Below, piece after piece: positions 1 to 49,484 of a stretch of DNA of 64,000 bases. The translations under genes and the position numbers were made by a program. This DNA is from Marsupella aquatica (lineage: Eukaryota; Plantae; Marchantiophyta), in assembly GCA_973895155.1 (NCBI GenBank), contig OZ316896.1, positions 3,386,738 through 3,450,737 on the forward strand. The letters run 5' to 3'. Each line of letters starts with the position of its first letter. Within the stretch, counting starts at the first letter, position 1. The notes under the pieces were generated by a model. The model worked only from the letters and a program-made list of their open reading frames with translations. It was not told where the DNA came from and made no database searches.

Positions 1-71
1 CGCAACAATGCAAAGCAACAATGGCGGGGGGAAAAATAGAATTGAGCAGCACACATTGGGGCTGGGCAATG

Positions 72-3000: not shown

Positions 3001-3727
3001 TGCTGCTGTGGAGGTTTCTCCTAGCACCGTTGCCTGGGTCCACCTTTCCGTGCTACCCTTTAATTCCCAGTGTATGTCATTGCAGTTCTTGATGGCTTCT
3101 CGGATGCCGACGACGTTGTCTTTGCAAAACAGAAGATCGTCAAGTTGATTGGAAGTAGGCGTCCACAGGAACTCGTCCTTGATGAGTTCGCCTCCTAAGA
3201 AAGCCGTCTTCTACAGCTCCCACAATCGAGCGAGCTCCTGCCGTTATCGAGCTGCCCTTTCTGATTCCTCGTCCTCGTAAGTCTTGATGTACTCAGTTGC
3301 CCGTTCGAACAGGCATCCCCAGAAATGTGCCGCTTGATTGACGTTGCTCATACCCTCCTTAGGTCGATCGTCAGTATCTACTCTCTCCCCGAGTGCTTGC
3401 CTAAGCAGCTGACAGTAGTTGGCCTCCCGTAGTCGTCTGCCTAGTTCGTGCTCGCAAATGAGCCACTATCTCCTGCAAGCGCTCCTTACCCCTCTCCTCT
3501 GCCAGTCCTTCTTCCCGTTGATCCTTCCTAGCCGCCGACGCTTAACGCGCCCTAACCCTAATCGAGTTTTCACCCTCAGCGTCCTTACCTCCGGCCTCGG
3601 CCCGGGTTCCATGGTTGCCCCTAATTGTTTATATTTTCCTTGTTTTGTCCCTATACTAAGGTGTTCCTAGGGTGCCTTCCTGCTTTACCCACTTAACTGG
3701 CCGAGTGATTCCTGTCTAGGCATCACA
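72..3727 (-). mobile_element. Solo/chimeric giant gypsy LTR with a ~982-bp internal deletion
   Basis: Starts TGTGGTGCG and ends GGCATCACA like the LTRs at 27242-31866 and 38092-42726. Lacks the segment equivalent to ~29688-30669. Left flank ends CAATG but right flank is GGGAG, so there is no TSD. Confidence 0.93.
993..3611 (-). pseudogene. Disrupted copy of the LTR-encoded large ORF
   Basis: ORF fragments 2461-3027, 1742-2383, 1493-1729 and 993-1559 match the proteins at 28153-31751; broken by in-frame stops and the deletion. Confidence 0.88.
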
Positions 3728-8416: not shown

Positions 8417-8559
8417 AGTTGAAGTCTACAACACTCTTTCACGACTAATCCGTGCATTCTAGTCAGAGTGATTTCCTGTCACTAAGCAGTAGTTCTTGCT
8501 GGTTTCCGCTAGTTTTTTCTGCATCTGGATCTAGTTTTGCGTCACTATTTTCATACACC

Positions 8560-12827: not shown

Positions 12828-12860
12828 CAGACATTCGTTTTTCAGAAGATCTGAGGGGTC

Positions 12861-15983: not shown

Positions 15984-16006
15984 CGTGGTTCAAGCTGTCC
16001 TGAAGC

Positions 16007-25346: not shown

Positions 25347-28152
25347 AGTCTAGCCTCCAGACATGAAAATAAGATGCAGGTTGGTACAAGGTGAGGGAAT
25401 GCTCTGGTCAAATTTAACCCACAAACAGGCATTTATAGAGTGAACTTCAATCATCCTATGGCCATACATTTGGTACCAAACTCACAGAACAATAACAAAG
25501 TCTTGTACACCTACTTCAAAATGTATGTGGAAGAGGCTTACGAGAAGTATGGGCGGTATATTGTCTGTTCCTTGTCTTCATATTGTAGATCAACTTGGTG
25601 AATGGCAAAACCATCCCAGTAACACTCGCATCTGATTTCGAGAGTGGGAGATACGCCACCTTTCGTGATCAAAATCGTCAGCTGCAACATCTTCGTTCGA
25701 CTCTCCGGGTCTTCACCGACTTCCGGCTTGCGCTGATAATTTTTTCTCACTAGTTGCAGAACACAAGACATAGTGATGTCTTCCAACCCATAAATTCTGG
25801 TCAACGTCATCTCCATCTCTCCAGGTTCGTCCTTCACAATTGTAAACGGTTTGGGTGGTTTCCTCTGTGTGATGTTCTGCAAAACACTTCGACACGACAT
25901 CTATGTCAAACATTTTATCCTACGATAAGGTTTCCAGACACTCTGGAAATAGCTCTAGACATGACAGAAAGCGGGTGACAATCTGCATGAGGTACAGCGG
26001 AAGCAGATGTGCCCAATGGGAAGCACATAACCAAAAAAAACCATATTGTCTCACAAGGCTTGCTCAAAGGGAAAGAAAAAAAGGTCTAGGATTGGCAGAA
26101 TCAGGGAGGATTAATCACAACTAACCAAGATGTCAAGATCCTTCTGGCAACAATAGGCATGAACAAGCTTACGCTGCCTAAGTGCAAAGCAAGTATCACT
26201 TTGTAATATGTGCACTTTAAAATTAGGTTCTAGAAGAATGTCATCCACTGGACCTCAGTATAGTGCACACTTGGACAAACCAAGGAATAATCCCAAAAGA
26301 AACGATGTCTGGACACATAATGATCTTCAGCATCAGAAAAATCCAGCAATAGAACAATGCAGAAGAAAATTTGCCTACATCAACTTACAGATACAAGGCA
26401 GAACTTGGCAGGGAATACCGTAACTCACCAGCAATCGCTTCGTACAGTCTTTGACCTCGCAACGAAACACGTGCAGGAGACCCTCATCTCCTTTGTGCAA
26501 GCCAATATCTACACCTTTTACTGCACAAGAGGCAAAATGTGACTTCTGGACACGCGACGGATACAGAAAACAATCCCTGGTTGCTGTTGTTGCTACTGCT
26601 GTGGGTCCATTCCACGCAAGTTTTGAAGTCTTTGAGCGCTATCTCCTCAATTGTTGTGGCAGCACGACCTTGTCACCCAATGGCTGAGTTATCACTGGCG
26701 ACCACTCTTGAGAACCACTGGCTATTCCATGATTCCCCTGCCCAAAAGCCCGGCTGGAATTTCCACCACAACAACAAAGCCGAACTCCGATCCTCATAGG
26801 GAGAACAGGGAGAACAAGGAGAACAGGGAGGCAACTCACAATGGAGCTAGGTAGCTTGTGATCGAGCAGCTCGCGATTGTAGCAACAACAGATTGAGCAC
26901 ATCGCGATTGTAGCAACAACAATTTGAGCAGTAGGCGATTGAACTCTAGGCAAATGAGCTCCAGGCGATTGGGTGCGTGATTGAGCAGGCAATTGTAACA
27001 ACAGGCAGCAAGCGACTGAACTAAGCAGCATAAGGCAATGGACCTAGGTAGCTCACGAATTGAGCTGAGCAGCAATGTCACCCAACACCTTTCTCTTCTA
27101 GCAATGGAGCTCAAGAGTGAAAGCAATGTCACCCAGACCCTAAACTCTTCACAACAATGGAGCTCAACAACGCAACAATGCAAAGCAACAATGGCGGGGG
27201 GAAAAATAGAATTGAGCAGCACACATTGGGGCTGGGCAATGTGTGGTGCGTCCCATGGCTCCCTAAACCCAAGAAACCCCCCAGCTCAAGCCGATTCCCG
27301 CAGGTTTCGTGCTTGGCGAGGCCGTTTCCGCGGCTTAGCGGCATGGGACGCTGCTAACCTTCTACTACTACTATTAACATTTTACACACATATACTGGAC
27401 AGATCCTTCATCGGGTCATGAGATACGTAGCCGGCCTAATATAGGCCTTCCCCTGTCTTCCCCTCCGTCTTGTTAGATATGTTTGGATTCCGCCGCCGGA
27501 ATGATCCCCAATAGGCTTGGTTAAGCCGCTAAGACCTCTCTCAGCTCGACACATCCAACTCTCACTCCCCTGCTTACTTTCCTTCCTTCTGTTGATGTGG
27601 GCACTCTTCACACAAGTTAATGCGACACACAAATAGCAAAATGACTCATTCTGACTGAGTCATACCATGCACTTGCCATACAAACAGTACATCTCATACA
27701 CAAGTTCTGCGAACTAAGCCGTGAGGCCAACTCTATTCAGCTCTTAGGCATGAGGAAACATGAATATACACAAGGGTCACTGTATGACTAACCGAGAGCT
27801 TCTCGTACTACTTGATCCCAGCCCGGCTGGTGCAAACTAAAAACTTGCTAAAGAAGAGGCCCTGAGCTCCCCGCTGCCCAGGTACTTATCCTGGTAGTGG
27901 ATCCGCCATTCTTTGCATCGTAAGCCTAATCTACTTAACAGTAATCTACTTGCCCGAATCTACCTATGTACAGCAAGGCAGGAGCACAAGTGTTGCTCCT
28001 ACCAGTGGGACCGCAATCCCACTAAGCTAAGTGTCAGGGCCGCTCCTGGTTCTGATCCTAATCCTAAACGTGGAGATCCGCGCCCGCCCTGCCCACTCAC
28101 GCCTCCTCCCTCCACGTCCGCCCTCCCTAAAAGGAACGGCGCCCTTGCACCG

Positions 28153-28719
28153 TCACGACACCGGTGGTGGATCCTTAATGGATGCCCCCAACGCTTCCTC
28201 CTCAGCCACTGCCGTAGGTTCATTCTCTGACAGATTACCTGCCCTTGACTGAGTCAACTCTCCATCGGCCTGACTGGGTCCACCTTCGGCTTCAGCCTCG
28301 ACACCGGCCTCGGCAATACCCACGGCTTTGGCCTCAGCCACTCCCTCGGCTTCGGCCTCCCCTTCCCCTAGGGTAGTTGGATCCCTAGCCGTGACCCTGT
28401 CTGGGGTCGGTGCTGGGTCTACCTCCTTGATCACCACGGCCTGTGAAGTCGTATTACTCCTTGACCCTGAAGGTTTCCGCTTCTTCTTCGTTGGTGGCTC
28501 GGCAGCTGGTCCCTTCCCCTTCCCACTTACTTCCGGCACTGGTGCAGGTGGCGCGGCTTGTCCTTCGGCAATTACCACCCCTGGTAACTGGTTTGTCCCA
28601 ACGGGAGATGGACCTGCTGCAGCTAAGCATTTAAATACTGCGGCTTGTTTCTTCAGCCGCTCTATTTGGTTGTCGGCCCGCCGCTGTAGGTTCTCCATCT
28701 TCCTCGTGATTTCCTCCAA
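28153..28719 (-). CDS. C-terminal continuation of the LTR-encoded ORF in another frame (coiled coil, PPTKKKRK NLS-like motif, acidic EA repeats)
   Basis: Overlaps the end of the 1029-aa ORF; a -1 shift at GATGAACCCAAGAG joins LDE to QEELEEITRKMENL and continues the heptad pattern. No initiating ATG. Confidence 0.6.
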   Translation of the reverse strand: MEEITRKMENLQRRADNQIERLKKQAAVFKCLAAAGPSPVGTNQLPGVVIAEGQAAPPAPVPEVSGKGKGPAAEPPTKKKRKPSGSRSNTTSQAVVIKEVDPAPTPDRVTARDPTTLGEGEAEAEGVAEAKAVGIAEAGVEAEAEGGPSQADGELTQSRAGNLSENEPTAVAEEEALGASIKDPPPVS

Positions 28720-31700
28720 CTCCTCTTGGGTTCATCCAGGTCCTTACGTGCCCCCTCCAGCTCGTTTTTGGCCTCCTCCTGCTCCCTGTGGGCTTCCTCC
28801 AATTCCTTCTTCAAGGTAGCCCTCTCCTCCTGGGTTGCTCTTAGCTCCTTGTCGAGCTCTGCAATGATGACAGACTCCATCTGGTTCATCTTGGCGTAAG
28901 TCTGTTCGAGCATCTCGTCCTTCTCCCTTAGGTCGGCCTTGAAGCTGGCCGTCAGGGACGCAAGCTCCTGCTGCAGCGCCATAATCCCTTGATAGGATTT
29001 CCCTAACTCGACCTCCTTCTGCTCAAGGGCTCCGCGGATTTTCTTGAGCTCCCCTTTCAACGCCCATTCCTTTCTTTGGGTCTCCGCCATGGCCCGGCTG
29101 TTGGCTGTTATGTGGGCCTCCTCTGTATTCTTCAGCTCTCGCTTCCACTTCTCCCTCTCTTTGATCGTGTCGGCCAACTCTCCCTGCGTCTGAGTCAGTT
29201 TATCCTTGATATTCTGATTATCAGCCTGCGCGGTGTCCAACTGCCCCTGCATGATGTTCAGCTCATGCCGTTTAATCCGTAGTTCATCTTGGGCTTTCTT
29301 GGCCGCCCTTAGATCTTCAATCTCGGCTTCCATCCTCCTAAGCCGCCGAATGACCTCGTCCTTCTTGCTTCTCTCTAAAGCCACCGCTTCTTCTAATTGG
29401 TGCTTCTCCAACTGCTCCCTATGGAAAAAGGGTCCTACCTCCAACTCCTCTCCAAAGATGCCGAGCACAAGTTCCCCACACATCTCACCATACTCCATGG
29501 CTCTATTCTTAGCGTAGGTGGAGTAAGTAGAAGTGATCGGCATCGCCCATCGTGGCCTCTGCTCCCAAGCCGTCCTGCGGATCTCTTCAATCGTGGCTAG
29601 AGGTTTGCTTCCTTTTTTGGCTAGCCGCCTGATGTCCTCCGGCCAATCTCCTCCTGGTAAATCCTTTTCCTTAGCCAGGGCGGCCTCCTCCTCCTGCTTG
29701 ATTCGCTCCTGAAATTCCTGCACCGTCTGTTTTATGCCGTCGAAGCTCGGGGGAGCAACATCTGGTGGGGGAGACTCAGGGCTACTCTGCTGGTTGGGGT
29801 CCCCTCGCACTACCCTTGGAAGTGTGGGGACAAACCGGCCACAGGTCCTTACTCCTGGAACGTGATGGTCCGACCCATAGCCGGAATTATCATGGCTGCA
29901 GTCCTCCACTGCCTCCTCTACCTCTTGGACGTCCGGCTTCTCCCTCTCCTCTTCGTCGGTAGGAGCTTCAGGCAATTCTGCCTCAGATTCGGAGCTTGAG
30001 GTTCCCACGTACATTCGAACACCTGGCTTGGATTCCGGCCTGATTCTCGCCTTGTCTCCAGCAAAGGGGTTTTCTCTTGTGAGCCGGTGTAGGCCTACCT
30101 CTGTAGTAGTGTCCTGCATTGTTGCCGTTGCCGTTGTTGTTGCCGATGCCGATTTCTTTTCTTTCTCCAGTAGTTTCAGCAGACTCTGCATGCCTGGTTG
30201 CTGCATCGGCAAGTCTTCCTTCCTGGGCCTAAACACCTGCTCGATCGTAGGACTAACAGGTGGTTGAGGCTTCTCAGCCAACGGCCTCGGCGTTGGAGCT
30301 TCCTCGGGTGCCCTTACCTGCAGGGGAAGTACCGGGGCAAAAGTCTGACCTCTGGCATACCGGCACAACAGCGGCATGTGATAGCCAAGCCGCGACACGC
30401 TCCCCATGCTGATTACCTGCTGCTCCTCCTTTAAGATCTTCTTTAATTGGTTGAGGAGGTACCCGTTGTAGTCCCGGCTTGGGTCTAGCCTTTCTGCCAG
30501 ATAGACTTGTGCCTTGCCGATCTCTGCCCTCGGCAAGTTACAATGCATGGTCACCCGCAAGAAGTCGATCATCTCTCCTATGTGCGGGTTGGTGCAGGTG
30601 TTCCGGAAGAAGCCATTCTTCGTTGATGGCCCGGGGAATGACCGGAACTCCTTGTCAGGCAAGGTCTTCCTGGTATCAACTTTGGTCTTATTGCCTATCG
30701 GCAAGCCAAACACCTCGGCAATTACCTTGGGAGTAAGATAGAAATCCTTCCCATATATCCTCGTGCAATTGGTCTCGGGTTCCCATGACCCCACGAATTC
30801 TAATAGGTCTGACTCCGGTACCTCCGGCTTCAGCCATGGTAATCTTACAAAGGCCTCCAAGCCGGATCCGGCCATGAAGCCTTGGTACTTCTTGGTCTGC
30901 ATGGCCGTAAAGCATGCATCCTCCTCCCGTGCAAAATGTAGTTGCACCTCCACCGGTAGGGTTGCCGCCCAGCCCTTCCAGGTGTCATCCCTGGTTGGAA
31001 TGGCCTTGATGGGATCGACCTCCTCCTCTTCGGCTTCTCCCTGCCTCCTGCTCTGCTGCTCGGCTGGCCTCTTTGGTGCCGCCGACCTCGTTCTTTTTGC
31101 CGGGGTGGCTTCATCGTTGACGGCCCCCTTCCTCTTCATCTCTGCTGCCGTGGAGGTTTCTCCTAGCACCGTTGCCTGGGTCCACCTTTCCGTGCTACCC
31201 TTTAATTCCCAGTGTATGTCGTTGCAGTTCTTGATGGCCTCTCGGATGCCGACGACGCTGTCTTTGCAAAACAGAAGATCGTCGAGTTGATTGGAAGTAG
31301 GCGTCCACAGGAACTCGTCCTTGATGAGTTCGCCTCCTAAGAAAGCCGTCTTCTGCAGCTCCCACAATCGAGCGAGCTCCTGCCGTTCTCGAGCTGCCCT
31401 TTCTGACTCCTCGTCCTCGTAAGTCTTGATGTACTCAGTTGCCCGTTCGAACAGGCATCCCCAGAAATGTGCCACTTGATTGACGTTGCTCATACCCTCC
31501 TTAGGTCGATCGTCGGTATCTATTCTCTCCCCGAGTGCTTGCCTAAGCAACTGACAGTAGTTGGCCTCCCGTAGTCGTCTGCCTAGTTCGTGCTCGCAAA
31601 TGAGCCACCATCTCCTGCAAGCGCTCCTTACCCATCTCCTCTGCCGGTCCTTCTTCCCGTTGATCCTTCCTAGCCGCCGACGCTTAACGCGCCCTAACCC

Positions 31701-31751
31701 TAATCGGGTTTTCACCCTCAGCCTTACCTCCGGCCTCTGCCCGGGTTCCAT
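28662..31751 (-). CDS. LTR-encoded 1029-aa protein: basic N-terminus, plant-mobile/transposon-protein-like domain, long coiled coil
   Basis: Uninterrupted ORF wholly inside the LTR; ATG in gcaaccATGG context; GLEAFV...LLEFVGSW...IYGKDFYLTPKVIAEVFGLP resembles accessory ORFs of plant non-chromoviruses; long E/K/R/L-rich heptad region. Confidence 0.85.
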   Translation of the reverse strand: MEPGQRPEVRLRVKTRLGLGRVKRRRLGRINGKKDRQRRWVRSACRRWWLICEHELGRRLREANYCQLLRQALGERIDTDDRPKEGMSNVNQVAHFWGCLFERATEYIKTYEDEESERAARERQELARLWELQKTAFLGGELIKDEFLWTPTSNQLDDLLFCKDSVVGIREAIKNCNDIHWELKGSTERWTQATVLGETSTAAEMKRKGAVNDEATPAKRTRSAAPKRPAEQQSRRQGEAEEEEVDPIKAIPTRDDTWKGWAATLPVEVQLHFAREEDACFTAMQTKKYQGFMAGSGLEAFVRLPWLKPEVPESDLLEFVGSWEPETNCTRIYGKDFYLTPKVIAEVFGLPIGNKTKVDTRKTLPDKEFRSFPGPSTKNGFFRNTCTNPHIGEMIDFLRVTMHCNLPRAEIGKAQVYLAERLDPSRDYNGYLLNQLKKILKEEQQVISMGSVSRLGYHMPLLCRYARGQTFAPVLPLQVRAPEEAPTPRPLAEKPQPPVSPTIEQVFRPRKEDLPMQQPGMQSLLKLLEKEKKSASATTTATATMQDTTTEVGLHRLTRENPFAGDKARIRPESKPGVRMYVGTSSSESEAELPEAPTDEEEREKPDVQEVEEAVEDCSHDNSGYGSDHHVPGVRTCGRFVPTLPRVVRGDPNQQSSPESPPPDVAPPSFDGIKQTVQEFQERIKQEEEAALAKEKDLPGGDWPEDIRRLAKKGSKPLATIEEIRRTAWEQRPRWAMPITSTYSTYAKNRAMEYGEMCGELVLGIFGEELEVGPFFHREQLEKHQLEEAVALERSKKDEVIRRLRRMEAEIEDLRAAKKAQDELRIKRHELNIMQGQLDTAQADNQNIKDKLTQTQGELADTIKEREKWKRELKNTEEAHITANSRAMAETQRKEWALKGELKKIRGALEQKEVELGKSYQGIMALQQELASLTASFKADLREKDEMLEQTYAKMNQMESVIIAELDKELRATQEERATLKKELEEAHREQEEAKNELEGARKDLDEPKRSWRKSRGRWRTYSGGPTTK

Positions 31752-31854
31752 GGTTGCCCCTAATTGTTTATATTTTCCTTGTTTTGTCCCTATACTAAGG
31801 TGTTCCTAGGGTGCCTTCCTGCTTTACCCACTTAACCGGCCGAGTGATTCCTGT

Positions 31855-34800
31855 CTAGGCATCACATAGCTCCCCACTTAATTGTGAAGCGTCCTCGCGA
31901 ACAACTGCATCTTCGTCCATATAGTATTTCTTGAGGCGGTCATAATGGATGCGAACTGGATATACCTCTCCCGTAATGTTGGCCAATTGTACGGAGCCAT
32001 TGGGGAACATCATGGTTACTCTAAAGGGTCCTAACCAGCGAGTGTAAAGCTTTCCTGGAAACCTACTATACCTACTGTCATAAAGTAGCACAAGATCACC
32101 GGTATGAATACTAACTACTTTTAACCTTTTATCATACTGCTGCTTCATGATATTCTGTCTATATTCTACTCTCTCGGCTGAAATCATTCTCGCTTCCTCT
32201 AAAGCTTCTAACCTATATTCTCGCTCCTTTAGGCTCTCCTCCGCTGAGGCTCTTTCCTCAATTGTAACTTGAAATGTCGGTATCTCAAGTTGCATGGGTA
32301 CCAGGGCTTCTTGTCCAAAGGTTAAGAAGAAGGGTGTATGACCGGTAGTGGATTTATAGGCAAGATTGTAAGCAAAAACAGCAGCAAACAATTTATCATC
32401 CCAATCGAGTTTGTTCTGAGCTACTGTCTTGTTCAATATCTTTCCTATGATTCCGTTTGCTCGTTCTGTCAACCCGTTTGCCTTTGGATGGTAGGGAGTA
32501 GTAGGCCTATGTTTAACTAAATACTGCTCATTTAAACGACTAATTATATCATTCAAAAAATGGGTTCCTCTATCACTAACTAATTCTAGGGGTGCTCCAT
32601 ACCTGGTGAAGATCTGCTCATACATGAATCTAGCCGTAGTAATTGCATCATCCTTCGTTGTTGGTCTGGCCTCTACCCATTTAGTTGCATAATCCGTAGC
32701 CAGGATTATGTACTTGTTCCGTCGAGGGTGGGTCAGTGGTTTCAGAGGTCCAATGTAATCAATACCCCACTTCTCGAATGGTGCCAGAGGTAGAATAGGG
32801 TGCAGTGGATGCCTGGTGGACGCCCTTGGTCCTCCCGCTCGTTGACAAGGATCGCATTGTTTGATAAACTGATAGACATCTTTGTGCAAGGTGGGCCACC
32901 AGTAACCGGCATTTAATATCTTCTTAGACGTGGTTACTGGGGCAAAATGTCCTCCGGCCTCCTCTCCATGCATGGCCCGTAGGACTCGTTTTACCTCTCT
33001 CTTTTCCAAATATCTTTGAATCGTGCCGTTGATTCCATGCTTGTGCAGTATGCCTTTAATGCACTGATACTGTCTGACCTTCCGCACAAAGACTGCGGCT
33101 TGCTCTCGGCTTAACCCTGGCTGTAATCTGGAAGTGCTGAGAAATTGTAAAATCTCAGGGTACCATGTACCAGCTATTTCCACAACGAATAGCTCCTCGT
33201 CGGGGAATCGATCATCGATGCAATCCGTGGCAGGTTTACCTGTGATCCTTGAAAAGAAGTCGGCATTGGCATGTAACTTTCCCGGCTTGATCCTCAGCTC
33301 ATAGTCAAACTCCTGTAATAGCAAAATCCATCTTGCTACTCTGCCTGTAAGGTCCGGCTTATTGACTAGGTACTTCAAACTTTCATGATCAGTATGAAAG
33401 ATTACCTTGTACCCTAGTAAATAATGCCTAAACTTTTTACAAGAATAAATGACTCCTAATGCTTCTCTTTCCGTGGTAGAGTAGTTCCGTTCGGCATCGG
33501 CAAGCTGACGGCTTGCGAAGTATATGGGATGGTCCCTTCCTTTCTCATCCAACTGACTTAGTACTGAGCCAATACAGAAGCCCGAGACATCTACAAAAAC
33601 ATGAAAATCTTTGTTCCAGTCCGGTGCTATCATGACTGGGGCCTCTACTAACATCTGCTTCAATTCTACCACCGCTGTGACTCGTTCGGGTGTGGGTTCG
33701 AAGTCTGCTCCTGCCTTGAGCATATTGGTTAATGGTAAAGCCAGCTTGGCAAAATCCTTGATGAACCGGCGATAGTAACCAATGCATCCCAAGAAGGATC
33801 TTACATCCTTTATGTTCTTAGGTTGCATGATATCTAGCCATACTGCTAGCTTACCTTTGTCAATCTCAATGCCCTTCCTTGATACCTTGTGACCTAGTAG
33901 CACCCCCTCGGTTACTGCAAAAAAACATTTATCTGGGTGTAACTTGAGACCCACCTCTCTACATCTCATGAAGGTTTTCCTGAGGTATTTAGCATGTTTC
34001 GATGCCTTCCCGAATACTGCAAAGTCATCAATGAAGATTTCCATGAACTTTCTCAAGTAATCATGAAAAATGTTCACCATTAATCGTTGGAACATAGCTG
34101 GTGCATTGCAGAGTCCAAATGGCATACGATTGAAGACATAGATCCCCCATTCCGTGATGAAGGCCGTCTTGATTTGGTCTTCCTACCGAATCCTGATTTG
34201 GTTATAACCAGAGTATCCATCCATGAATGAATATAGTTCATGACTGGCTACCATGTCTAGTACCATATCAGTAAACGGTAAAGGAAAATGGTCTTTTAAT
34301 GTTGCTTCATTCAGCTTCCTGTAATCCTGACAAACCCGGATCTTGGGTTTACCATCGGGTCCAGCTTTCTTGGGAACTATCACAATTGGAGACACCCAGT
34401 CTGAATGCAGGACTGGAGTGATGAATCCAGCTTCCACTAGTTTGTCGATTTCTGTTTTGACCAGCAGGGAATACTTCGGGTTCATCCTTCGAATTGGTTG
34501 TCGAAATGATTTGGCTCCTAACATGAGATCAATTCGATGTTCCCCTAGTGTTGGATCTACTCCCTTTAGATCTTGGTGACTCCATGCAAACACATCCTGA
34601 AATTCAATCAATAAGTCACTGATCTCTTTCTCGAGCTCAGGTGCTAGGTTTCTCCCTAAGTTCAGTTCTCTTCCCTCTCCTAAGTCGAGCTTCCAATATT
34701 GCCGTGCTTGGATCATATTTAATCTGCTTCTTCAAATTCGGGTCCAGTTCGGCTTCCAGTCTCTCTAATCTCATACCTCCATAAACTGGGATCTCGGCTG

Positions 34801-35118
34801 GACTAGCCGAGTCGGTCCCTTCCTTGGTGTCCATAGATTGTCCCCTTACCGGTCTATTCGGTTTTGAATTAGTGGTCGGCTCCCCTTCCTGCCTTGGCTC
34901 TGGATCGTGTCTGTCCATCTCATCCACTTCTTGCTCCTGAGAGTTAGGCCGCTGTGCTCTCTCGGCTTCTAATAGGGCCTCAATTTGTTCTGCCCTCGTA
35001 ATCGGCTTGTATGCCGATCCCTTGGTATTTAATTCCTTGCCGATGATCGATGGCGTTGTGGACCCCGTCGGCTCTGCCACAACGCCTGCAGAAAATCCAC
35101 TGTCCCTGCTACTGCTCC
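31855..35118 (-). pseudogene. Gypsy pol (RT, RNase H, integrase), disrupted
   Basis: DVFAWS, WVSPIVIVPKK, CQDYRKLN, MDGYSGYNQI, MPFGLCNAPA, FIDDF, DVSGFCIG, HHCC zinc finger, WGIDYIGP, SDRGTHF. In-frame TAG at 34183-34185; single-base frameshifts near 34690 and 35120. Confidence 0.93.
31867..31880 (-). promoter_or_regulatory. Polypurine tract
   Basis: AAGTGGGGAGCTA directly precedes the TG of the 3' LTR on the minus strand. Confidence 0.7.
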
Positions 35119-38022
35119 CTACTTAGCCGTTTCATCCAATTGGTCTACATCCTTTACTTCCTCCGGAATTGCAGCTAAAAAGGTGGATTCTATTGTAAAG
35201 CAGTCCTCGACCTCTTCGTCTTCTTCTTCCAAGTCACCTTCCATTGGTTCTTGCCATAATCCGCTGGGGGGTACCTCTGGTCCAAAGACACCTTCTTCGG
35301 TTAGGTTAGTGAGGCATTCTAACCAACGTACTTCATCGGCTGACTCCAGTCCACTGTCGTACCCATCTACTTCCCTTATGCTTTTCCTACGGTCATCCTT
35401 AGTGTCCCAGGATACCGTGATAGAGGGGGTCCCGAAAGTGAACTGCTTTTTACCCCAATCTTCTATTACCTCGGCTAGGTACAGCCATGGCCTACCAATC
35501 AATAGCCGGAATGACGTAGGATTTACCGGCTTCATTACTACATAGTTAATGCTAAAGAAGATACCTCCTATCTCTGTCTTGATGCCGGTTAACACTCCCG
35601 TCGGAATGACCTGATATCCATTGGCCATGTTCAACACTCTTCCAGTCATCTCCGGTGTTAGACCCCACCCTTTTGCTGTTGAATCAATCATAATACATAC
35701 CCCTGATCCTCCATCGATGGGTACCCGTAGTAATAATTCTCCTTGAATCATTAATGGTAATGCTGGGACTCCTTGATCTTCTTCTATTATTAGTACGTCG
35801 GATCTGGTTGCTACCTTGGGTAATCTCGGCTTGCCGAGAATAGCCTTCCTTAATTGCTTCCGGAAGTACGGGCTATTTTTCAATAGTTGACCTACTGTTG
35901 CCGAGACTCTAGATTCTAGTACATCTTTAGCCAGGTCATAGGGAACAATCGGCTTCTCTTCTGGTGGTGTTTCCGTCTTGGATTCGGCCAGTTTTGCCAC
36001 GCTAGTCTCCACAGCTGTTGGGTCTTCCGAAGCAAACAATGCTTTTGCTCGTTTTACATCCTTGGCAATGGCTTCGGTATTCTCCAGGGTTTCTAATTCT
36101 CTTAGTTGTTCCTTAACACTAGCCGTAACAGAGGGGTAGAACAACTTAGGATGATCTCGATTGAAGTCGCTATCTTGTGAAGGATTGGTTTCACTGGTGG
36201 GCTCATGGCTTACCTGTATTGCCGGAGCCCTCCCTTCTCCTTCTGTTGATGTTGACGAAGAGTCGATCCTTTCCTCCGTAACCTTCCCTTTATTTTTGGC
36301 CAGCCCATCCCACCTTTCCTTCCTTCTGGTAGATCGAGTAGAGACCCGGTAGCAATCATGATCTAAATCCTCCTCTGAGAAGGTTGATAGGGCTTCGGCC
36401 TCATCATCAGATGGTACGAACTCTGCCTCGGCATCCTCTTGCCATCCTAGTTCGATGTGGTTGATTTGAACTCCTCCGGGGGTAGTACCTGGCGGTAAGA
36501 TCTTGATCGGCAAAAGCTTATGATTTGCGGCCAGGCCTGCCAACCAAGTAGGACATTGCCCTAGCATATGACCTTCCTGTCGGCATCCCATACATAGCTG
36601 AGCTGGTTGTCCATCACCCTGTTTGCATGCATTCGGGCATTCTCTAGCAAAATGGCCAGGTTGACCACAATTATAGCACGCCGCAAATCTTTGCACATTC
36701 GGCCTAGGAGGTACTGACGGGTTCTGAATAATCCGAGGATACATCTCTCCTGGATTGTTCCTTAACCCTGACCATAGAGATGCAGGTCTGTTGGATAGGT
36801 CTCGTGCTCCAGTCTCACTGATGCCGAAAACACTATCAGCGGCATCTCCCAAAAAGTACTCTACTTCTCCCTGACATGGTCTGATCTCGGCCACATGCCG
36901 AACATGATTAGTATTAAGCTTAGGACACGCATCTTTATGGTGTCCGGTTTTATAACATAAGGCACACCATACAGAGCTATCCTCCTGTACTACCTTCTTC
37001 TTTGGTTTTACCTCTGCAATGATAGCCTTAAGTTGCTCGGTAAGGGCTACGATGTTATCTGGTGGCTTAGCCTCCATCTTGACTTTCGTCTTCCCTCTCC
37101 TTCTGCCCTTCCTTTTCCTAGTTTTTTCTTCTTCAGAACTAGAAGATGACTCACTCTTGCTACTCCCACTATCCGAGCTTGACTTATCACTTCTAGACTT
37201 CTTGGGATGTTTCTTCTTCTTATCTTTTTTCTTATGGGGTGATCCCTCCTCTGATGAGGAACTCTCAGACTTAAGCTGTTTCTTCCGGCTTGTGATATCT
37301 GCATTAATGTATAATTGAATATCCTTAATTGCTTCGGCTAAAGTCTCCGGGTTCTCCTTCCTAATTGCAAAACTCATCTTCTGTGGCAAAGCATTCACCA
37401 ACCATTGAAGTTGCATACCTTCAGATGCATTGGTCTTTGTACGTCTTACCAGTTTCTGAAAGCGTTGCAAGAACTTCCTGAAGGATTTGTTCTCCTTGAA
37501 CCGAAGTTGTCCCAACTTCAGCACTGCTAGTTCTGAAGTTCCAATGGGTCGAAACTCCTTAACAAAGAGTGTTTTGAAGATATCCCAGATGGCTTGATCT
37601 TCCACATCTAATGCTCTGTACCAAGGCCTAGCCTCACCCTTGAACAGGCCGGGAAGAATCTGCATCTTGATGGCCGATTCTCCATTTGCTGCAGCGGTTC
37701 CCTCGAAATCATCCAACCATTCGTCCGGATCCTCATCTCCTCTCCCATGAAATGCCTTGTAATGTATGCGCGACCGCTGGCTCAATCTGGTCCCTGGCCT
37801 CTCGTCTGGCCGTGCCTCTGGTTCCCCCATGTCGGTTGGAGACTCACTTCTCCTTACCGACTCTTCTTCTGGTATGTCTTCTTCGACGCCACTTCCAGTT
37901 TCGGAGCTACCAGCTCTTTCTGCCCCTCTCAGTCGCTGTGTATCATGCCACCCGGCGAGCTGCTGCAGTCGAGCTCTCTCCCGTTGAATCACTCTTTCTT
38001 CCCTCGGCGTAAGGTCAGTCAT
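35119..38022 (-). CDS. Gypsy gag-protease (967 aa) with three CCHC zinc knuckles
   Basis: Capsid-like FHGRGDEDPDEWL...GEARPWY; knuckles CALC..GH....C, CYNCGQPGHFAREC, CMGC..GH....C; protease IDGGSG and LLIGRPWL. Confidence 0.92.
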   Translation of the reverse strand: MTDLTPREERVIQRERARLQQLAGWHDTQRLRGAERAGSSETGSGVEEDIPEEESVRRSESPTDMGEPEARPDERPGTRLSQRSRIHYKAFHGRGDEDPDEWLDDFEGTAAANGESAIKMQILPGLFKGEARPWYRALDVEDQAIWDIFKTLFVKEFRPIGTSELAVLKLGQLRFKENKSFRKFLQRFQKLVRRTKTNASEGMQLQWLVNALPQKMSFAIRKENPETLAEAIKDIQLYINADITSRKKQLKSESSSSEEGSPHKKKDKKKKHPKKSRSDKSSSDSGSSKSESSSSSEEEKTRKRKGRRRGKTKVKMEAKPPDNIVALTEQLKAIIAEVKPKKKVVQEDSSVWCALCYKTGHHKDACPKLNTNHVRHVAEIRPCQGEVEYFLGDAADSVFGISETGARDLSNRPASLWSGLRNNPGEMYPRIIQNPSVPPRPNVQRFAACYNCGQPGHFARECPNACKQGDGQPAQLCMGCRQEGHMLGQCPTWLAGLAANHKLLPIKILPPGTTPGGVQINHIELGWQEDAEAEFVPSDDEAEALSTFSEEDLDHDCYRVSTRSTRRKERWDGLAKNKGKVTEERIDSSSTSTEGEGRAPAIQVSHEPTSETNPSQDSDFNRDHPKLFYPSVTASVKEQLRELETLENTEAIAKDVKRAKALFASEDPTAVETSVAKLAESKTETPPEEKPIVPYDLAKDVLESRVSATVGQLLKNSPYFRKQLRKAILGKPRLPKVATRSDVLIIEEDQGVPALPLMIQGELLLRVPIDGGSGVCIMIDSTAKGWGLTPEMTGRVLNMANGYQVIPTGVLTGIKTEIGGIFFSINYVVMKPVNPTSFRLLIGRPWLYLAEVIEDWGKKQFTFGTPSITVSWDTKDDRRKSIREVDGYDSGLESADEVRWLECLTNLTEEGVFGPEVPPSGLWQEPMEGDLEEEDEEVEDCFTIESTFLAAIPEEVKDVDQLDETAK

Positions 38023-38069
38023 TACCTACGCTTCCGTTCTAACTTCATATCTCACGGCTTAAGAAATGC

Positions 38070-38087
38070 CCCCTCCATCTAGCGCCA
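38070..38087 (-). promoter_or_regulatory. Primer-binding site TGGCGCTAGATGGAGGGG
   Basis: Starts with TGG, 4 nt after the CA of the 5' LTR; cognate tRNA not determined. Confidence 0.8.
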
Positions 38088-38091
38088 AAAA

Positions 38092-41000
38092 TGTGGTGCG
38101 TCCCATGGCTCCCTAAACCCAAGAAACCCCCCAGCTCAAGCCGATTCCCGCAGGTTTTGTGCTTGGCGAGGCCGTTTCCGCGGCTTAGCGGCATGGGACG
38201 CTGCTAACCTTCTACTACTACTATTAACATTTTACACACATATACTGGACAGATCCTTCATCGGGTCATGAGATACGTAGCCGGCCTAATATAGGCCTTC
38301 CCCTGTCTTCCCCTGTCTTCCCCTCCGTCTTGTTAGATATGTTTGGATTCCGCCGCCGGAATGATCCCCAATAGGCTTGGTTAAGCCGCTAAGACCTCTC
38401 TCAGCTCGACACATCCAACTCTCACTCCCCTGCTTACTTTCCTTCCTTCTGTTGATGTGGGCACTCTTCACACAAGTTAATGCGACACACAAATAGCAAA
38501 ATGACTCATTCTGACTGAGTCATACCATGCACTTGCCATACAAACAGTACATCTCATACACAAGTTCTGCGAACTAAGCCGTGAGGCCAACTCTATTCAG
38601 CTCTTAGGCATGAGGAAACATGAATATACACAAGGGTCACTGTATGACTAACCGAGAGCTTCTCGTACTACTTGATCCCAGCCCGGCTGGTGCAAACTAA
38701 AAACTTGCTAAAGAAGAGGCCCTGAGCTCCCCGCTGCCCAGGTACTTATCCTGGTAGTGGATCCGCCATTCTTTGCATCGTAAGCCTAATCTACTTAACA
38801 GTAATCTACTTGCCCGAATCTACCTATGTACAGCAAGGCAAGAGCACAAGTGTTGCTCCTACCAGTGGGACCGCAATCCCACTAAGCTAAGTGTCAGGGC
38901 CGCTCCTGGTTCTGATCCTAATCCTAAACGTGGAGATCCGCGCCCGCCCTGCCCACTCACGCCTCCTCCCTCCACGTCCGCCCTCCCTAAAAGGAACGGC
39001 GCCCTTGCACCGTCACGACACCGGTGGTGGATCCTTAATGGACGCCCCCAACGCTTCCTCCTCAGCCACTGCCGTAGGTTCATTCTCTGACAGATTACCT
39101 GCCCTTGACTGAGTCAACTCTCCATCGGCCTGACTGGGTCCACCTTTGGCTTCAGCCTCGACACCGGCCTCGGCAATACCCACGGCTTCGGCCTCAGCCA
39201 CTCCCTCGGCTTCGGCCTCCCCTTCCCCTAGGGTAGTTGGATCCCTAGCCGTGACCCTGTCTGGGGTCGGTGCTGGGTCTACCTCCTTGATCACCACGGC
39301 CTGTGAAGTCGTATTACTCCTTGACCCTGAAGGTTTCCGCTTCTTCTTCGTTGGTGGCTCGGCAGCTGGTCCCTTCCCCTTCCCACTTACTTCCGGCACT
39401 GGTGCAGGTGGCGCGGCTTGTCCTTCGGCAATTACCACCCCTGGTAACTGGTTTGTCCCAACGGGAGATGGACCTGCTGCAGCTAAGCATTTAAATACTG
39501 CGGCTTGTTTCTTCAGCCGCTCTATTTGGTTGTCGGCCCGCCGCTGTAGGTTCTCCATCTTCCTCGTGATTTCCTCCAACTCCTCTTGGGTTCATCCAGG
39601 TCCTTACGTGCCCCCTCCAGCTCGTTTTTGGCCTCCTCCTGCTCCCTGTGGGCTTCCTCCAATTCCTTCTTCAAGGTAGCCCTCTCCTCCTGGGTTGCTC
39701 TTAGCTCCTTGTCGAGCTCTGCAATGATGACAGACTCCATCTGGTTCATCTTGGCGTAAGTCTGTTCGAGCATCTCGTCCTTCTCCCTTAGGTCGGCCTT
39801 GAAGCTGGCCGTCAGGGACGCAAGCTCCTGCTGCAGCGCCATAATCCCTTGATAGGATTTCCCTAACTCGACCTCCTTCTGCTCAAGGGCTCCGCGGATT
39901 TTCTCGAGCTCCCCTTTCAACGCCCATTCCTTTCTTTGGGTCTCCGCCATGGCCCGACTGTTGGCTGTTATGTGGGCCTCCTCTGTATTCTTCAGCTCTC
40001 GCTTCCACTTCTCCCTCTCTTTGATCGTGTCGGCCAACTCTCCCTGCGTCTGAGTCAGTTTATCCTTGATATTCTGATTATCAGCCTGCGCGGTGTCCAA
40101 CTGCCCCTGCATGATGTTCAGCTCATGCCGTTTAATCCGCAGTTCATCTTGGGCTTTCTTGGCCGCCCTTAGATCTTCAATCTCGGCTTCCATCCTCCTA
40201 AGCCGCCGAATGACCTCGTCCTTCTTGCTTCTCTCTAAAGCCACCGCTTCTTCTAATTGGTGCTTCTCCAACTGCTCCCTATGGAAAAAGGGTCCTACCT
40301 CCAACTCCTCTCCAAAGATGCCGAGCACAAGTTCCCCACACATCTCACCATACTCCATGGCTCTATTCTTAGCGTAGGTGGAGTAAGTAGAAGTGATCGG
40401 CATCGCCCATCGTGGCCTCTGCTCCCAAGCCGTCCTGCGGATCTCTTCAATCGTGGCTAGAGGTTTGCTTCCTTTTTTGGCTAGCCGCCTGATGTCCTCC
40501 GGCCAATCTCCTCTTGGTAAATCCTTTTCCTTAGCCAGGGCGGCCTCCTCCTCCTGCTTGATTCGCTTCTGAAATTCCTGCACCGTCTGTTTTATGTCGT
40601 CGAAGCTCGGGGGAGCAACATCTGGTGGGGGAGACTCAGGGCTACTCTGCTGGTTGGGGTCCCCTTGCACTACCCTTGGAAGTGTGGGGACAAACCGGCC
40701 ACAGGTCCTTACTCCTGGAACGTGATGGTCCGACCCATAGCCGGAATTATCATGGCTGTAGTCCTCCACTGCCTCCTCTACCTCTTGGACGTCCGGCTTC
40801 TCCCTCTCCTCTTCGTCGGTAGGAGCTTCAGGCAATTCTGCCTCAGATTCGGAGCTTGAGGTTCCCATGTACATTCGAACACCTGGCTTGGATTCCGGCC
40901 TGATTCTCTCCTTGTCTCCAGCAAAGGGGTTTTCTCTTGTGAGCCGGTGTAGGCCTACCTCTGTAGTAGTGTCCTGCATTGTTGCCGTTGCCGTTGTTGT

Positions 41001-42726
41001 TGCCGATGCCAATTTCTTTCCTTTCTCCAGTAGTTTTAGCAGACTCTGCATGCCTGGTTGCTGCATCGGCAAGTCTTCCTTCCTGGGCCTAAACACCTGC
41101 TCGATCGTAGGACTAACAGGTGGTTGAGGCTTCTCAGCCAACGGCCTCGGCGTTGGAGCTTCCTCGGGTGCCCTTACCTGCAGGGGAAGTACCGGGGCAA
41201 AAGTCTGACCTCTGGCATACCGGCACAACAGCGGCATGTGATAGCCAAGCCGCGACACGCTCCCCATGCTGATTACCTGCTGCTCCTCCTTTAAGATCTT
41301 CTTCAATTGGTTGAGGAGGTACCCGTTGTAGTCCCGGCTTGGGTCTGGCCTTTCTGCCAGATAGACCTGTGCCTTGCCGATCTCTGCCCTCGGCAAGTTA
41401 CAATGCATGGTCACCCGCAAGAAGTCGATCATCTCTCCTATGTGCGGGTTGGTGCAGGTGTTCCGGAAGAAGCCATTCTTTGTTGATGGCCCGGGGAATG
41501 ACCGGAACTCCTTGTCAGGCAAGGTCTTCCTGGTATCAACTTTGGTCTTATTGCCTATCGGCAAGCCAAACACCTCGGCAATTACCTTGGGAGTAAGATA
41601 GAAATCCTTCCCATATATCCTCGTGCAATTGGTCTCGGGTTCCCATGACCCCACGAATTCTAATAGGTCTGACTCCGGTACCTCCGGCTTCAGCCATGGT
41701 AATCTTACAAAGGCCTCCAAGCCGGATCCGGCCATGAAGCCTTGGTACTTCTTGGTCTGCATGGCCGTAAAGCATGCATCCTCCTCCCGTGCAAAATGTA
41801 GTTGCACCTCCACCGGTAGGGTTGCCGCCCAGCCCTTCCAGGTGTCATCCCTGGTTGGAATGGCCTTGATGGGATCGACCTCCTCCTCTTCGGCTTCTCC
41901 CTGCCTCCTGCTCTGCTGCTCGGCTGGCCTCTTTGGTGCCGCCGACCTCGTTCTTTTTGCCGGGGTGGCTTCATCGTTGACGGCCCCCTTCCTCTTCATC
42001 TCTGCTGCCGTGGAGGTTTCTCCTAGCACCGTTGCCTGGGTCCACCTTTCCGTGCTACCCTTTAATTCCCAGTGTATGTCGTTGCAGTTCTTGATGGCCT
42101 CTCGGATGCCGACGACGCTGTCTTTGCAAAACAGAAGATCGTCGAGTTGATTGGAAGTAGGCGTCCACAGGAACTCGTCCTTGATGAGTTCGCCTCCTAA
42201 GAAAGCCGTCTTCTGCAGCTCCCACAATCAAGCGAGCTCCTGCCGTTCTCGAGCTGCCCTTTCTGACTCCTCGTCCTCGTAAGTCTTGATGTACTCAGTT
42301 GCCCGTTCGAACAGGCATCCCCAGAAATGTGCCGCTTGATTGACGTTGCTCATACCCTCCTTAGGTCGATCATCGGTATCTATTCTCTCCCCGAGTGCTT
42401 GCCTAAGCAGCTGACAGTAGTTGGCCTCCCGTAGTCGTCTGCCTAGTTCGTGCTCGCAAATGAGCCACCATCTCCTGCAAGCGCTCCTTACCCCTCTCCT
42501 CTGCCGGTCCTTCTTCCCGTTGATCCTTCCTAGCCGCCGACGCTTAACGCGCCCTAACCCTAATCGGGTTTTCACCCTCAGCCTTACCTCCGGCCTCTGC
42601 CCGGGTTCCATGGTTGCCTCTAATTGTTTATATTTTCCTTGTTTTGTCCCTATACTAAGGTGTTCCTAGGGTGCCTTCCTGCTTTACCCACTTAACCGGC
42701 CGAGTGATTCCTGTCTAGGCATCACA
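38092..42726 (-). repeat. 5' LTR (4635 bp)
   Basis: Direct repeat of 27242-31866, followed on the plus strand by TSD CAATG. Confidence 0.95.
39013..42611 (-). pseudogene. 5'-LTR copy of the large ORF, split by one CGA>TGA nonsense change
   Basis: ORFs 42228-42611 and 39522-42227 are contiguous and in frame; cccacaatca here versus cccacaatcg in the 3' LTR. Confidence 0.9.
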
Positions 42727-44417
42727 CAATGCTCAGCCAGGCTCCACTATCTTTGCTCACAAACTCTGCTCACAAACTCCGCTCACAAACCAATTTCTCA
42801 GACCTCCAGACTAAAGCTCGCAGCAGCCTCAATCCTGAACACATGAGCGCCTGAGCAGCAAGTTGTCAAGCAATGGTCAGGGCAATGGGAGTGCAAATAT
42901 AAGGGGTAGCAGTAAGTCCCCTCACCTCACTCACATGCCAAACACAAAAGCAGGGCCCGGTTGGCCTTGCAGCCCAATGATCCACCTCACACAATAAACT
43001 TCGTGAGACCTCCACAATTGATCGACGACCTTCTACCCTGCCACCAAGCAATGAGCAGCCCGATGATCCACCTTGCTCCCCACTTTGTGAGACCTCCACA
43101 ATGTGCCGACGACCTTGAACCCTGCCACCAAGCAATGAGCTCTCTGCTGTTGACTCCCTCAATGCTCACCCTAAACCTTCAACACTCTCGCCAAGCTATG
43201 GAAAAAAACCGCGATTGCTTCCCTTCTGGGTCGAGGTTTTTTGCTGCGGACAATGGAAGTGAATGCTTGAGGGTTTGCTTCACAAAAGGCCTCACTTTGC
43301 TAGGAAGGACCTGTGCACACTGACTAGACGCCTGAACCCACACTTAGTGGCAGAACTGATGCAAACCCAAACCTACATTGGCCCATTTCCAAAACCCCTA
43401 ACCCCTTTTCCATTGAGGCAAGCCGTTGAGCTTGCTAGTTGCACACACACACACACTGGCTTTAGCAACAAAGGTTAGACCACTAATGAGAGTTAGAGAT
43501 AACTGCAGAGATAACTTTGAAGCCACCCATTTAGATATAAAAATGAGGCCAATTTATATTATATGCATGCCAGTATGGGACCCTAGCTAGTTGGCACATC
43601 TACCATAACATAGTTGAGATTTTTTTTATGTTGTAACACTTGTAAACTTGTGGCATGCATATGCTGTAAACCCTAAAACCCTAAACCCTAGACCAAGTAC
43701 CTTTAATTTACCTTGTATATTACTTACCTTGTATCGCTACGTACTCACACAATATCGCGAGGGCATTTCCTTTAGTCCCACTGACAAATGTGTTTAAAGG
43801 AACTAAGAAAATTAGGATATGCCCCCAAATGGTATGTGTTGGGCGGGGTCAAATGGGATTAGATTGTGGTGTTAAACCCTAAAGTTCTCTTGCATGTATA
43901 AAGCTCTAATGTAGCGGGAGCCACTTAACAAACTTCATTCTTGTTGGTTGAACTTAGTTACAGTTGCAATTTCCACAATAGTTATAGAAATGACTTCCCA
44001 AGAATCAAGAAACTCCAGAATCACCGACCCAATTCTGTTCGACAAGCATAGCTCTCTCCTCTGTGCCGCCCGATCGTCTCTAATGTGATGTAATGCGTCT
44101 GATTGGCAGAGTGGCCGTGAAATTCAGGGTTTTGTAGACCACATCTAACATTTCTGTTAGGGTTTAATTAGTCTTGGGGTTCTTTGGTTAGGGTTTTAAA
44201 TCACCCCCACAAGGTTTAATCAATGAAAGGTGATGGTCACCAAATGTCATCTAGATTGTCAATGGCAATTAGTTTGTGGAGCCTTGTTTTACACCTTTGT
44301 CATTAAACTTATATATGTTTTTTGGCAAAGGTAGTTGGAACTCATTTTCCAGGTCTTGCTTAAGCATTACCTTTGTGTCACCTTTGATGTAAACCAAGTA
44401 AACCTCTTTCGTACTTA

Positions 44418-47620: not shown

Positions 47621-49484
47621 TCTCTTCATCACTATATTCATTAAAACTGAAATTATAAAGGATATAGGGAAATTTGGCGATTTAAAAACATAGTTTTAGG
47701 CATGAATATTGTAAATTTGGAAGATGAAAAATGAAAATTCAAGCATCATTAAATGTAAATTTGGGGACAAAAAAATGAAATTTTGGGAAAGTAAAATATT
47801 AAATTGGATGATATTAAAAAACATTTGGGTGATAAAAGTGTTCATTTGGTTGGAAAATAGATAGAATCTAGTAATAACATATAAGCTTGGATAGCATCTA
47901 TATTCAAAACATTTAGCTTGAGTAAGATATCTAACTAAGCACCAATACAATGGAATGACTATAGTGTCTAGACAAAGTTAACTAGGATGATATCCAACCT
48001 ACTAGAAGGAATGAAATGGCATCATTTTCTAGAATTAAAATATACTAAGACAAATAAAATAATAATTATAAGAAAGTCCATTCAATAGCTTTGAGAGATC
48101 ATAGAGTATTAATTTGATTGTCTTGTTCTCTCACTTTAGACCAACGCATGGAAATCAACTCGACCCTCTTAATCACAAGTCATTTGAGTGGAGACTTGTA
48201 ACCTACGAGTTCTATCAATCTACTCATCAATTATACCTTCCATGTAAATTTTGAGAGTTTTCAAAACATTCTTAGGAATTGTCAAACCTCTATCCATAAT
48301 ATTTTGTTCTTTAGCACCTGACTTAAACCCATACATTGAAGAATTTGCAAACTGCCAACTTTGAGTAACATTGTCAAACCCAGGATCCAGCTCCCAAGTC
48401 TTAGTGGTTTGAAAGCAACGTTCATATCGAACATCATCCTTTGCATCATGCTTACCATGTTTAGGCCTCCACCATTGTACTTGGAACATAGGAGCATTCC
48501 TAAGAGGAATGCTCTCAACAGACATTGAAGAAGACCCTTCAATATGTTGCAAATCTGTTGAGGGAACCTCATGGTTTGGATCCACACCACCCAAAGCTCG
48601 AACCAACCAGAAACGCCATTTTCCATTTTCCTGTTCCCATTCATCCTCTGGACGTAAAAATACAAAGTGACCTTCTTGAATATCTTGTAGAGGAATCCAA
48701 CGTGCAGGTTCTCGCTCTTGTCGTGCACCAACAAAGGGTGCAGCTTGATCTTCCATCTCTTCCATGTACTCATTTTGAAGGTCCATCATCTCTGGATTTT
48801 GAGAAGGTTCACTTGACGGTTGAGATGTCCCCAAAATCATCTTGTAACCTATGCCATGGTTAGTCTTTGGCCAAAAATTAGTTGTCAATGGCAAATGTCT
48901 TTCCCCCTCCCCTTCTATTGTAAGTTCCTCGGACAGTGCTTGCACAAGATTCTCCCAATATTTGACCAGAGGAAATCTCTCTTTATATGCTGCAGAGGTC
49001 TCATCCTTACAACTTTTCTTCAAGAAATCAATATAGCGATTAAGGAATGGGATGATTTCTCCAGCCTTCTTTTGTACATCCCCAGATATAGGTTTTGCAA
49101 ATGGTTGGCCTTCCGGTAAAATGAGCGCATTTGTGATGGGATTAGTTCTCCAAATGGACCTCCCCATTGTCGGAAGCCAAGGTTGCTTGACATGTGCTTT
49201 ATATTGATACACTGGCACATTATCCCTCATGGAGAAAAGAAATGCCACTGGTTTTGAGTGACCTTCTATCTCTTTCACCTGGAAAGTTTTCAAATACTCC
49301 TTGTAAGATGCAACCTCTTGAATCAATCGTGGTACAGGATGAATGCTTTCACACTCCCAAACCTCAGCCATCAACCCCAAGAGGGAAGCAACCTCTTTGT
49401 ATCTGACCTGTTTGGATACTTGAGAAAATAATGCATCCACGTCTTCATGGGTGTGGCCAACCATGAGGAATGACATTTGCACAG

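What the first reader, a model, noticed from the sequence alone, without database searches (positions are those of the whole stretch)
27242..42726. Gypsy retrotransposon whose 4.6-kb LTRs each encode a >1000-aa protein
Seen: TSD, TG..CA ends, PBS and PPT fix the LTRs at 4625 and 4635 bp, 60% of the element. A 1029-codon sense-strand ORF starts 115 bp inside the LTR and, with its continuation, fills ~3.6 kb of it. A TATA-like CCTATATTAGG lies only ~200 bp from the LTR 3' end (~27435-27445), which would put the ORF in U3. Known: extra ORFs of Athila, Ogre, Tat/Retand and SIRE lie in the internal region; LTR-overlapping genes are known from retroviruses (MMTV sag, HIV nef) and are much smaller. 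Inference: the accessory gene is duplicated at every replication and survives in solo LTRs, which would act as dispersed gene cassettes. The protein (transposon-protein-like domain, coiled coil, NLS-like motif, no obvious TM helix) looks nuclear, not env-like, e.g. anti-silencing or targeting.
Basis: partly seen in the sequence, partly recalled or inferred. Interest (0 to 1): 0.86.

Follow-up and report, generated by a model that had tools for sequence, protein, structure and literature searches.

The report
Big accessory gene inside retrotransposon LTRs
This jumping gene, likely from a liverwort, carries a large protein gene under purifying selection inside each of its two 4.6-kb end repeats, whereas several relatives keep the same gene outside them; the protein likely binds DNA to help the element escape host silencing, which is untested.

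The parts
42727..42731 (.). 5-bp target-site duplication (element 5' side)
   Evidence: CATTG in element orientation on both sides
38092..42726 (-). 5' LTR, 4,635 bp, TG..CA
39522..42611 (-). accessory ORF, 5' LTR copy; stop at codon 128, frameshift near 39590
39013..39591 (-). continuation frame of the accessory ORF (192 codons), 5' LTR
38070..38087 (-). primer-binding-site-like sequence (TGG start, 4 nt after the LTR); tRNA not identified
35119..38025 (-). gag (Retrotrans_gag, zf-CCHC) plus a protease-like region (read by eye), ending in a stop
34183..35122 (-). linker and RT N-terminus, broken by frame changes and a stop
31855..34182 (-). RT-RNase H-integrase; no chromodomain and no second RNase H; the stop codon lies 12 nt inside the 3' LTR
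31867..31902 (-). conserved PPT/attachment junction motif; with the LTR's first bases 87% identical over 45 nt to the junction that lies after the ORF in L002
27242..31866 (-). 3' LTR, 4,625 bp, TG..CA
31767..31774 (-). TATA-like AATATAAA at LTR base 93-100; candidate own promoter of the accessory gene (inferred)
28662..31751 (-). accessory ORF, 3' LTR copy: 1,029 codons from the first ATG; likely start Met87 at 31493
30339..31013 (-). conserved globular domain (residues 247-471), weakly Transposase_32/VANC-like
28730..29400 (-). coiled-coil-like region (about residues 790-1010), judged from composition only
28153..28731 (-). continuation frame (192 codons) with NLS-like PTKKKRK, 3' LTR
28115..28140 (-). 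purine tract just after the ORF, resembling by eye the extra tract after pol in L002 and L008; role unknown
27435..27445 (-). TATA-like CCTATATTAGG, candidate promoter for the genomic RNA (inferred)
27237..27241 (.). 5-bp target-site duplication (element 3' side)
72..3727 (-). third LTR of the family with a 982-bp deletion; likely hybrid of an older, independent insertion (LTR 1-1200) and this element's 3' LTR (2182-4635)

Best explanation
This is a young, broken copy of a non-chromovirus Ty3/gypsy family, likely from a liverwort, whose true 4.6-kb LTRs each contain a roughly 1,100-codon accessory gene under purifying selection, and whose product is likely a nuclear, VANC/PMD-like DNA-binding factor that would help the family resist silencing. 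Shown: the LTR boundaries, the frame, selection on it, the same domain after pol in relatives, and a conserved PPT/attachment junction that lies after the gene in outgroup elements (LTRs of 0.5-1 kb) and before it here and in one related clade. Inferred: the gene was an Athila-style internal 3' ORF that entered the LTR when it came to lie downstream of the plus-strand priming/attachment site. If the genomic promoter is the TATA 200 nt from the LTR end, the packaged RNA stays about 11 kb, as with an internal ORF; only the DNA copy grows, and reverse transcription writes the gene into both LTRs. Also inferred: the gene has its own TATA near the LTR start and begins at Met87, so LTRs and solo LTRs would be self-contained cassettes that can supply the protein in trans. 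Odds: architecture real and family-wide 0.9; U3 with own promoter 0.65; anti-silencing function 0.45.
Confidence: 0.5

Rival explanations
1. Same architecture, but the protein is an integration or nuclear-import helper. It binds chromatin or the element's DNA and escorts or aims the integrase, as chromodomains do in chromoviruses.
For: In L043 the same domain and a coiled coil lie in one 1,570-codon frame with RNase H and integrase, and the LTR is only about 540 bp. This lineage has no chromodomain. NLS-like motif.
Against: The fusion is seen in 1 of 8 domain-bearing loci, on a metagenome contig, and may be a lost stop. A DNA-binding fold fits either role. No insertion-site bias could be tested.
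Confidence: 0.22
2. The TATA near the LTR start is the element's main promoter, so the gene lies in R/U5 and is the first cistron of the genomic RNA (like Ogre ORF1), with gag-pol made by splicing or from the second TATA. This concerns layout and is compatible with either function.
For: AATATAAA at LTR base 93-100 is a closer TATA match than CCTATATTAGG. L003 and L005 have TATA boxes with pyrimidine-rich leaders upstream of the ORF.
Against: In outgroups the gene lies 3' of pol, and L002's 1-kb LTR has a TATA-like CCTATAAAT near its 3' end (by eye), so keeping the old promoter is simpler. A 4.5-kb minus-strand strong-stop DNA would be unusual (recalled knowledge).
Confidence: 0.2
3. The protein is env-like or structural (particle or cell-to-cell movement).
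For: It descends from the position of env-like 3' sense ORFs (PMC7264820). Athila-domain proteins are predicted to form coiled-coil oligomers (PMC13547354).
Against: No TM-like segment; no match among viral structures; NLS-like motif.
Confidence: 0.07
4. A local rearrangement or a neutral passenger: the long repeat is a duplication at this locus, or the frame is open by chance.
For: A real LTR-mediated duplication lies next to the element (third LTR). This copy's frames are broken, and 14 of 22 codon differences between its LTRs are non-synonymous or nonsense, as expected after insertion.
Against: TSD, PBS and PPT sit exactly at the long boundaries; other copies share the termini; synonymous excess; homologues at 12-43% identity.
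Confidence: 0.03

Closest known systems
Athila-type 3' extra ORFs of non-chromovirus Ty3/gypsy elements (PF03078 / Transposase_32 PF20167; REXdb PMC6317226; PMC7264820; PMC11728184)
   Same: Non-chromovirus Pol without a second RNase H, 5-bp TSD, a large sense ORF after pol, and a weak indirect link to Transposase_32.
   Different: The ORF lies downstream of the PPT, inside the LTR, in two copies per element. No TM helix. Pol does not group with the angiosperm hits. The review passages read place extra ORFs in the internal region.
VANC anti-silencing proteins of VANDAL DNA transposons and plant mobile domain proteins MAIN/MAIL1 (PMC5735166, PMC13547354, bioRxiv 2024.09.27.615353)
   Same: Top but weak fold match to VANC21-DNA over most of the domain; a conserved globular domain plus variable region and coiled coil.
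   Different: Encoded by a retrotransposon, inside its LTR, in a likely liverwort. No sequence-level match. No target-motif arrays seen. Activity untested.
Ogre and Retrosat2/RIRE3/RIRE8 (long LTRs plus extra ORFs; PMC6431247, PMC3485330)
   Same: LTRs of several kb (Ogre 1.9-6.5 kb; Retrosat2 over 3.2 kb) and an accessory ORF of unknown function.
   Different: In the passages read, their extra ORFs are internal or upstream of gag-pol; here three quarters of the LTR is coding. Ogre has a second RNase H, which is absent here.
MMTV sag, HIV/SIV nef and foamy-virus bel/bet (recalled; not read)
   Same: An accessory gene in or overlapping U3.
   Different: Animal retroviruses, unrelated proteins of a few hundred residues (recalled); here about 1,100-1,200 codons wholly within the LTR.
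Phygy and Selgy (REXdb)
   Same: Non-chromovirus elements of non-seed plants without a second RNase H.
   Different: They have 4-bp TSDs, no extra ORF and lengths of 4.4-10.0 kb.

Membership tests
Ty3/gypsy LTR retrotransposon | Domain order gag-(PR)-RT-RH-INT | tested here: met
   the protease was read by eye and had no Pfam hit
Ty3/gypsy LTR retrotransposon | TG..CA LTRs, TSD, PBS, PPT | tested here: met
Chromovirus | Chromodomain after the integrase | tested here: not met
   no chromodomain hit in Pol at E<=0.1; Pol ends in the LTR
Tat/Ogre/Retand | Additional archaeal-type RNase H | tested here: not met
   a single RNase H region (residues 164-292) followed by the integrase zinc finger at 394; definition
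Phygy | 4-bp NCGN TSD | tested here: not met
   5-bp CATTG
Phygy | No extra ORF, 7.7-10.0 kb | tested here: not met
   15.5 kb with a large extra ORF
Phygy / Selgy | RT-RH-INT clade membership | not testable with these tools
   the REXdb reference FASTA was too large to read; no labelled references in the trees
Selgy | 4-bp TSD, 4.4-6.7 kb | tested here: not met
Athila | No second RNase H, 5-bp TSD | tested here: met
Athila | PBS for tRNA-Asp/Asn/Ala | not tested
   no host tRNA set was available; none in the window
Athila | Pol groups with angiosperm Athila | tested here: inconclusive
   the window groups with a Calypogeia Pol and unnamed rows (99), apart from 8 angiosperm hits (100), whose Athila label is my inference (quick tree)
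Athila | Extra ORF in the internal region between pol and PPT | tested here: not met
   the ORF lies downstream of the PPT junction
Transposase_32 (PF20167) | Score above the Pfam cut-off | tested here: not met
   no hit for the window protein or its 21 aligned homologues; relative L009 21.4 bits vs cut-off 45
VANC / DUF1985 / plant mobile domain fold | Same fold | tested here: inconclusive
   [not shown]
VANC / DUF1985 / plant mobile domain fold | Sequence-specific DNA binding and loss of methylation at the family's own copies | not testable with these tools
   needs experiments
env-like ORF | Transmembrane helix | tested here: not met
   highest 19-residue hydropathy 0.95 (simple scale only)

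The most novel reading that the evidence does not exclude
A bryophyte Ty3/gypsy lineage has turned its LTR into a self-contained cassette (own TATA, about 1,100-codon gene, LTR 3' end) for a VANC-like, sequence-specific anti-silencing protein. Every solo LTR left by the host's deletion of an element would keep supplying the counter-silencing factor in trans, so LTR-LTR recombination would no longer remove the element's weapon. It would be a retrotransposon counterpart of the VANDAL/VANC system. The lineage also shows three states of one gene: internal, integrase-fused and LTR-borne.
Probability: 0.3. Interest if true: 0.87.

Novelty: new variant of a known kind. Interest (0 to 1): 0.68.

Why it matters
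Plant LTRs are treated as non-coding, and the function of plant retrotransposon extra ORFs is an open question (PMC7264820). Here a gene of over 1,000 codons under selection fills three quarters of the LTR. Relatives show the step that put it there: one conserved priming/attachment junction lying before instead of after the gene. That makes three things testable: how LTR length jumps, whether solo LTRs express a protein, and whether retrotransposons have VANC-like anti-silencing. Practically, such LTRs can be annotated as host genes (homologues appear as unnamed Calypogeia proteins; their context is unknown) and can be missed by tools that cap LTR length (recalled knowledge).

Full report
Observation. 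The element lies on the minus strand. Its LTRs are 38092-42726 (5', 4,635 bp) and 27242-31866 (3', 4,625 bp), with 28 substitutions and one 10-nt indel, K2P 0.006; at a recalled rate near 1e-8 per site and year that is about 0.3 million years. Both start TGTGATG and end CACCACA, a CATTG duplication flanks the element, a TGG-started PBS follows the 5' LTR and a purine tract precedes the 3' LTR. The internal 6.2 kb encodes gag, RT, RNase H and integrase in gypsy order, with no chromodomain and no second RNase H, broken by at least two stops and two frame changes. In the 3' LTR a sense frame runs 1,029 codons from base 116, and a second frame of 192 codons continues to base 3711; the 5' LTR copy also has a stop at codon 128. 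The frame change near codon 1008 is in both LTRs, but contigs of runs X1, X2 and X3 differ by a one-base indel there (table 4), so it belongs to this copy's lineage and the two frames are likely one gene. Chance does not give such a frame (about 1e-19).

Is the long LTR a family trait? A third LTR at 72-3727 begins at the same base next to an unrelated flank, and its first 1,200 bases are 2.2% diverged, so that part comes from an independent insertion. Nine runs from 7 studies hold part of the stretch, 5 of them half or more; one may be the source. I laid X1, X2, X3, X6 and X7. Listed contigs join other sequence exactly at 31866, 27242 or 38092: in X6 a 376-nt contig covers 31597-31866 and goes on elsewhere, and X2 has joints 31866-28431, 29803-27242, 30370-27242, 38946-38092 and 31866-30567 (the tables are cut to the best rows). 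Summed contig depth in X1 and X2 is 74,000-554,000 across the element against 500-700 on the left flank, and is not systematically lower over the ORF than over the non-coding LTR end; the tool warns that this is no copy number. Both LTRs share variants at codons 228 and 448 that most other copies lack, as one RNA template predicts.

Selection. Of the 40 variant rows shown (257 more not shown), 39 fall in the ORF and 1 in pol (dropped). Twenty are synonymous against 9.7 expected from the same base changes at random ORF sites (P about 3e-4). Split at codon 86, a split made after seeing the rows and homologue P0126, whose first Met aligns next to Met87: 17 of 27 against 6.9 downstream (P 2e-5), and 3 of 12 against 3.0 upstream. 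The gene therefore likely starts at Met87 and is about 1,110 codons; the TATA-like AATATAAA at LTR base 93-100 would then give a leader of about 250 nt. Differences between the two LTRs (8 synonymous, 14 not) look like decay after insertion.

Relatives. Pol's best named hits are Riccia, Calypogeia and Marchantia (46-66%), above angiosperm hits near 40%, and the window groups with a Calypogeia Pol, so the host is likely a liverwort (inference). Residues 1-480 found 22 homologues, best 42% over 247-471; 3 of the 10 looked up are Calypogeia fissa proteins. A Pol alignment fetched 80 metagenome loci. Of these, 26 extend 1.3 kb or more past the integrase match, and 18 of those 26 hold a sense frame of 250 or more codons there (several are near-duplicates). 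A profile of the window's domain hit 5 of 17 such ORFs, and after one iteration 3 more (L004-L006, E 1e-9 to 4e-7); the reversed control gave none.

How the gene entered the LTR. A motif upstream of the PPT is conserved. Window and L002 share 45 nt at 87% including the LTR's first TGTGATG, but in L002 the junction lies after the ORF and the LTR is about 1.0 kb. A pattern that I wrote from these examples matched 6 of 81 sequences (0.05 per shuffled round): after the ORF in L002 and L009, before it in the window and L004-L006. By eye L007 is 'after' and L003 'before'. In L004 the LTR start after pol is confirmed by 8/8 inverted termini at the PBS end. In L043 the domain is in frame with integrase and the LTR is about 540 bp. 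The outgroup clades have internal ORFs, so the LTR position is derived; one origin for the window and L003-L006 is neither shown nor rejected (74/75; one search was the quick tree). Inference: the gene came to lie downstream of the priming/attachment site. If the genomic promoter stays near the LTR's 3' end, the RNA is no longer than with an internal ORF, and reverse transcription copies the gene into both LTRs.

Comparison and novelty. The element fails defining features of Phygy, Selgy, Tat and chromoviruses, and is Athila-like in Pol make-up but not shown to be Athila (REXdb, PMC6317226: passages and two supplements read whole; Additional files 1 and 3 unreadable). The review of extra ORFs (PMC7264820, parts 1-2 of 3) places them in the internal region. 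Long LTRs are known in Ogre and Retrosat2 (PMC6431247, PMC3485330, passages). PMC12885004 (passages) had nothing on LTR genes. Nine searches listed no description of this layout in plants; retroviral precedents are recalled. The scan's own unchecked notes describe the same layout and a VANC-like fold on other DNA of this genome, including a solo LTR, and smaller LTR ORFs in fungi. I reached the VANC lead, before seeing those notes, and they are not independent support.

Verdict. A real, selected, family-wide gene inside giant LTRs, with relatives that show the internal and integrase-fused states; promoter layout and function untested. New variant of a known kind; interest 0.68.

Noticed in passing
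window 1-3727 and 27171-27241: Bases 1-71 equal 27171-27241, the flank of the element's 3' LTR, while the third LTR's other flank is unrelated. Its LTR part 1-1200 differs 2.2% from the 5' LTR and part 2182-4635 only 0.7%, with 982 bp missing between. This likely marks an unequal crossover between two family LTRs that duplicated the roughly 23.5-kb segment 3728-27241 in tandem.
   Followed up: partly
L043 1-4713: The accessory domain and a coiled coil are in one frame with RNase H-integrase (1,570 codons); the LTR is about 540 bp.
   Followed up: partly
L001, L002, L007, L008, L009, just after pol: Elements with an internal (or undetermined) ORF have a second purine tract right after pol, possibly a central PPT that could seed a shift of the LTR boundary.
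   Followed up: partly
window about 8149-13173, + strand: Ty1/copia element (gag, protease, integrase, RT hits; two in-frame stops and a frame change) with short LTR-like repeats at 8149-8406 and 12861-13173.
   Followed up: no
window 15210-15989 (-) and 17229-18770 (+): Two divergently oriented intronless AIG1-type GTPase ORFs inside the likely duplicated segment.
   Followed up: no
window 48220-53734 (-): Two ORFs with DUF7869, likely a DNA-transposon transposase.
   Followed up: no
window 58919-63079 (+): Three large unnamed ORFs, the last with a weak N6/N4 DNA methylase hit (E 0.003, below cut-off); possibly transposon cargo.
   Followed up: no
[not shown]
   Followed up: no
window 3730-5600, 54150-54330, 56515-56909: Degenerate tandem repeats (18-86, 15-68 and 73 bp units).
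   Followed up: no
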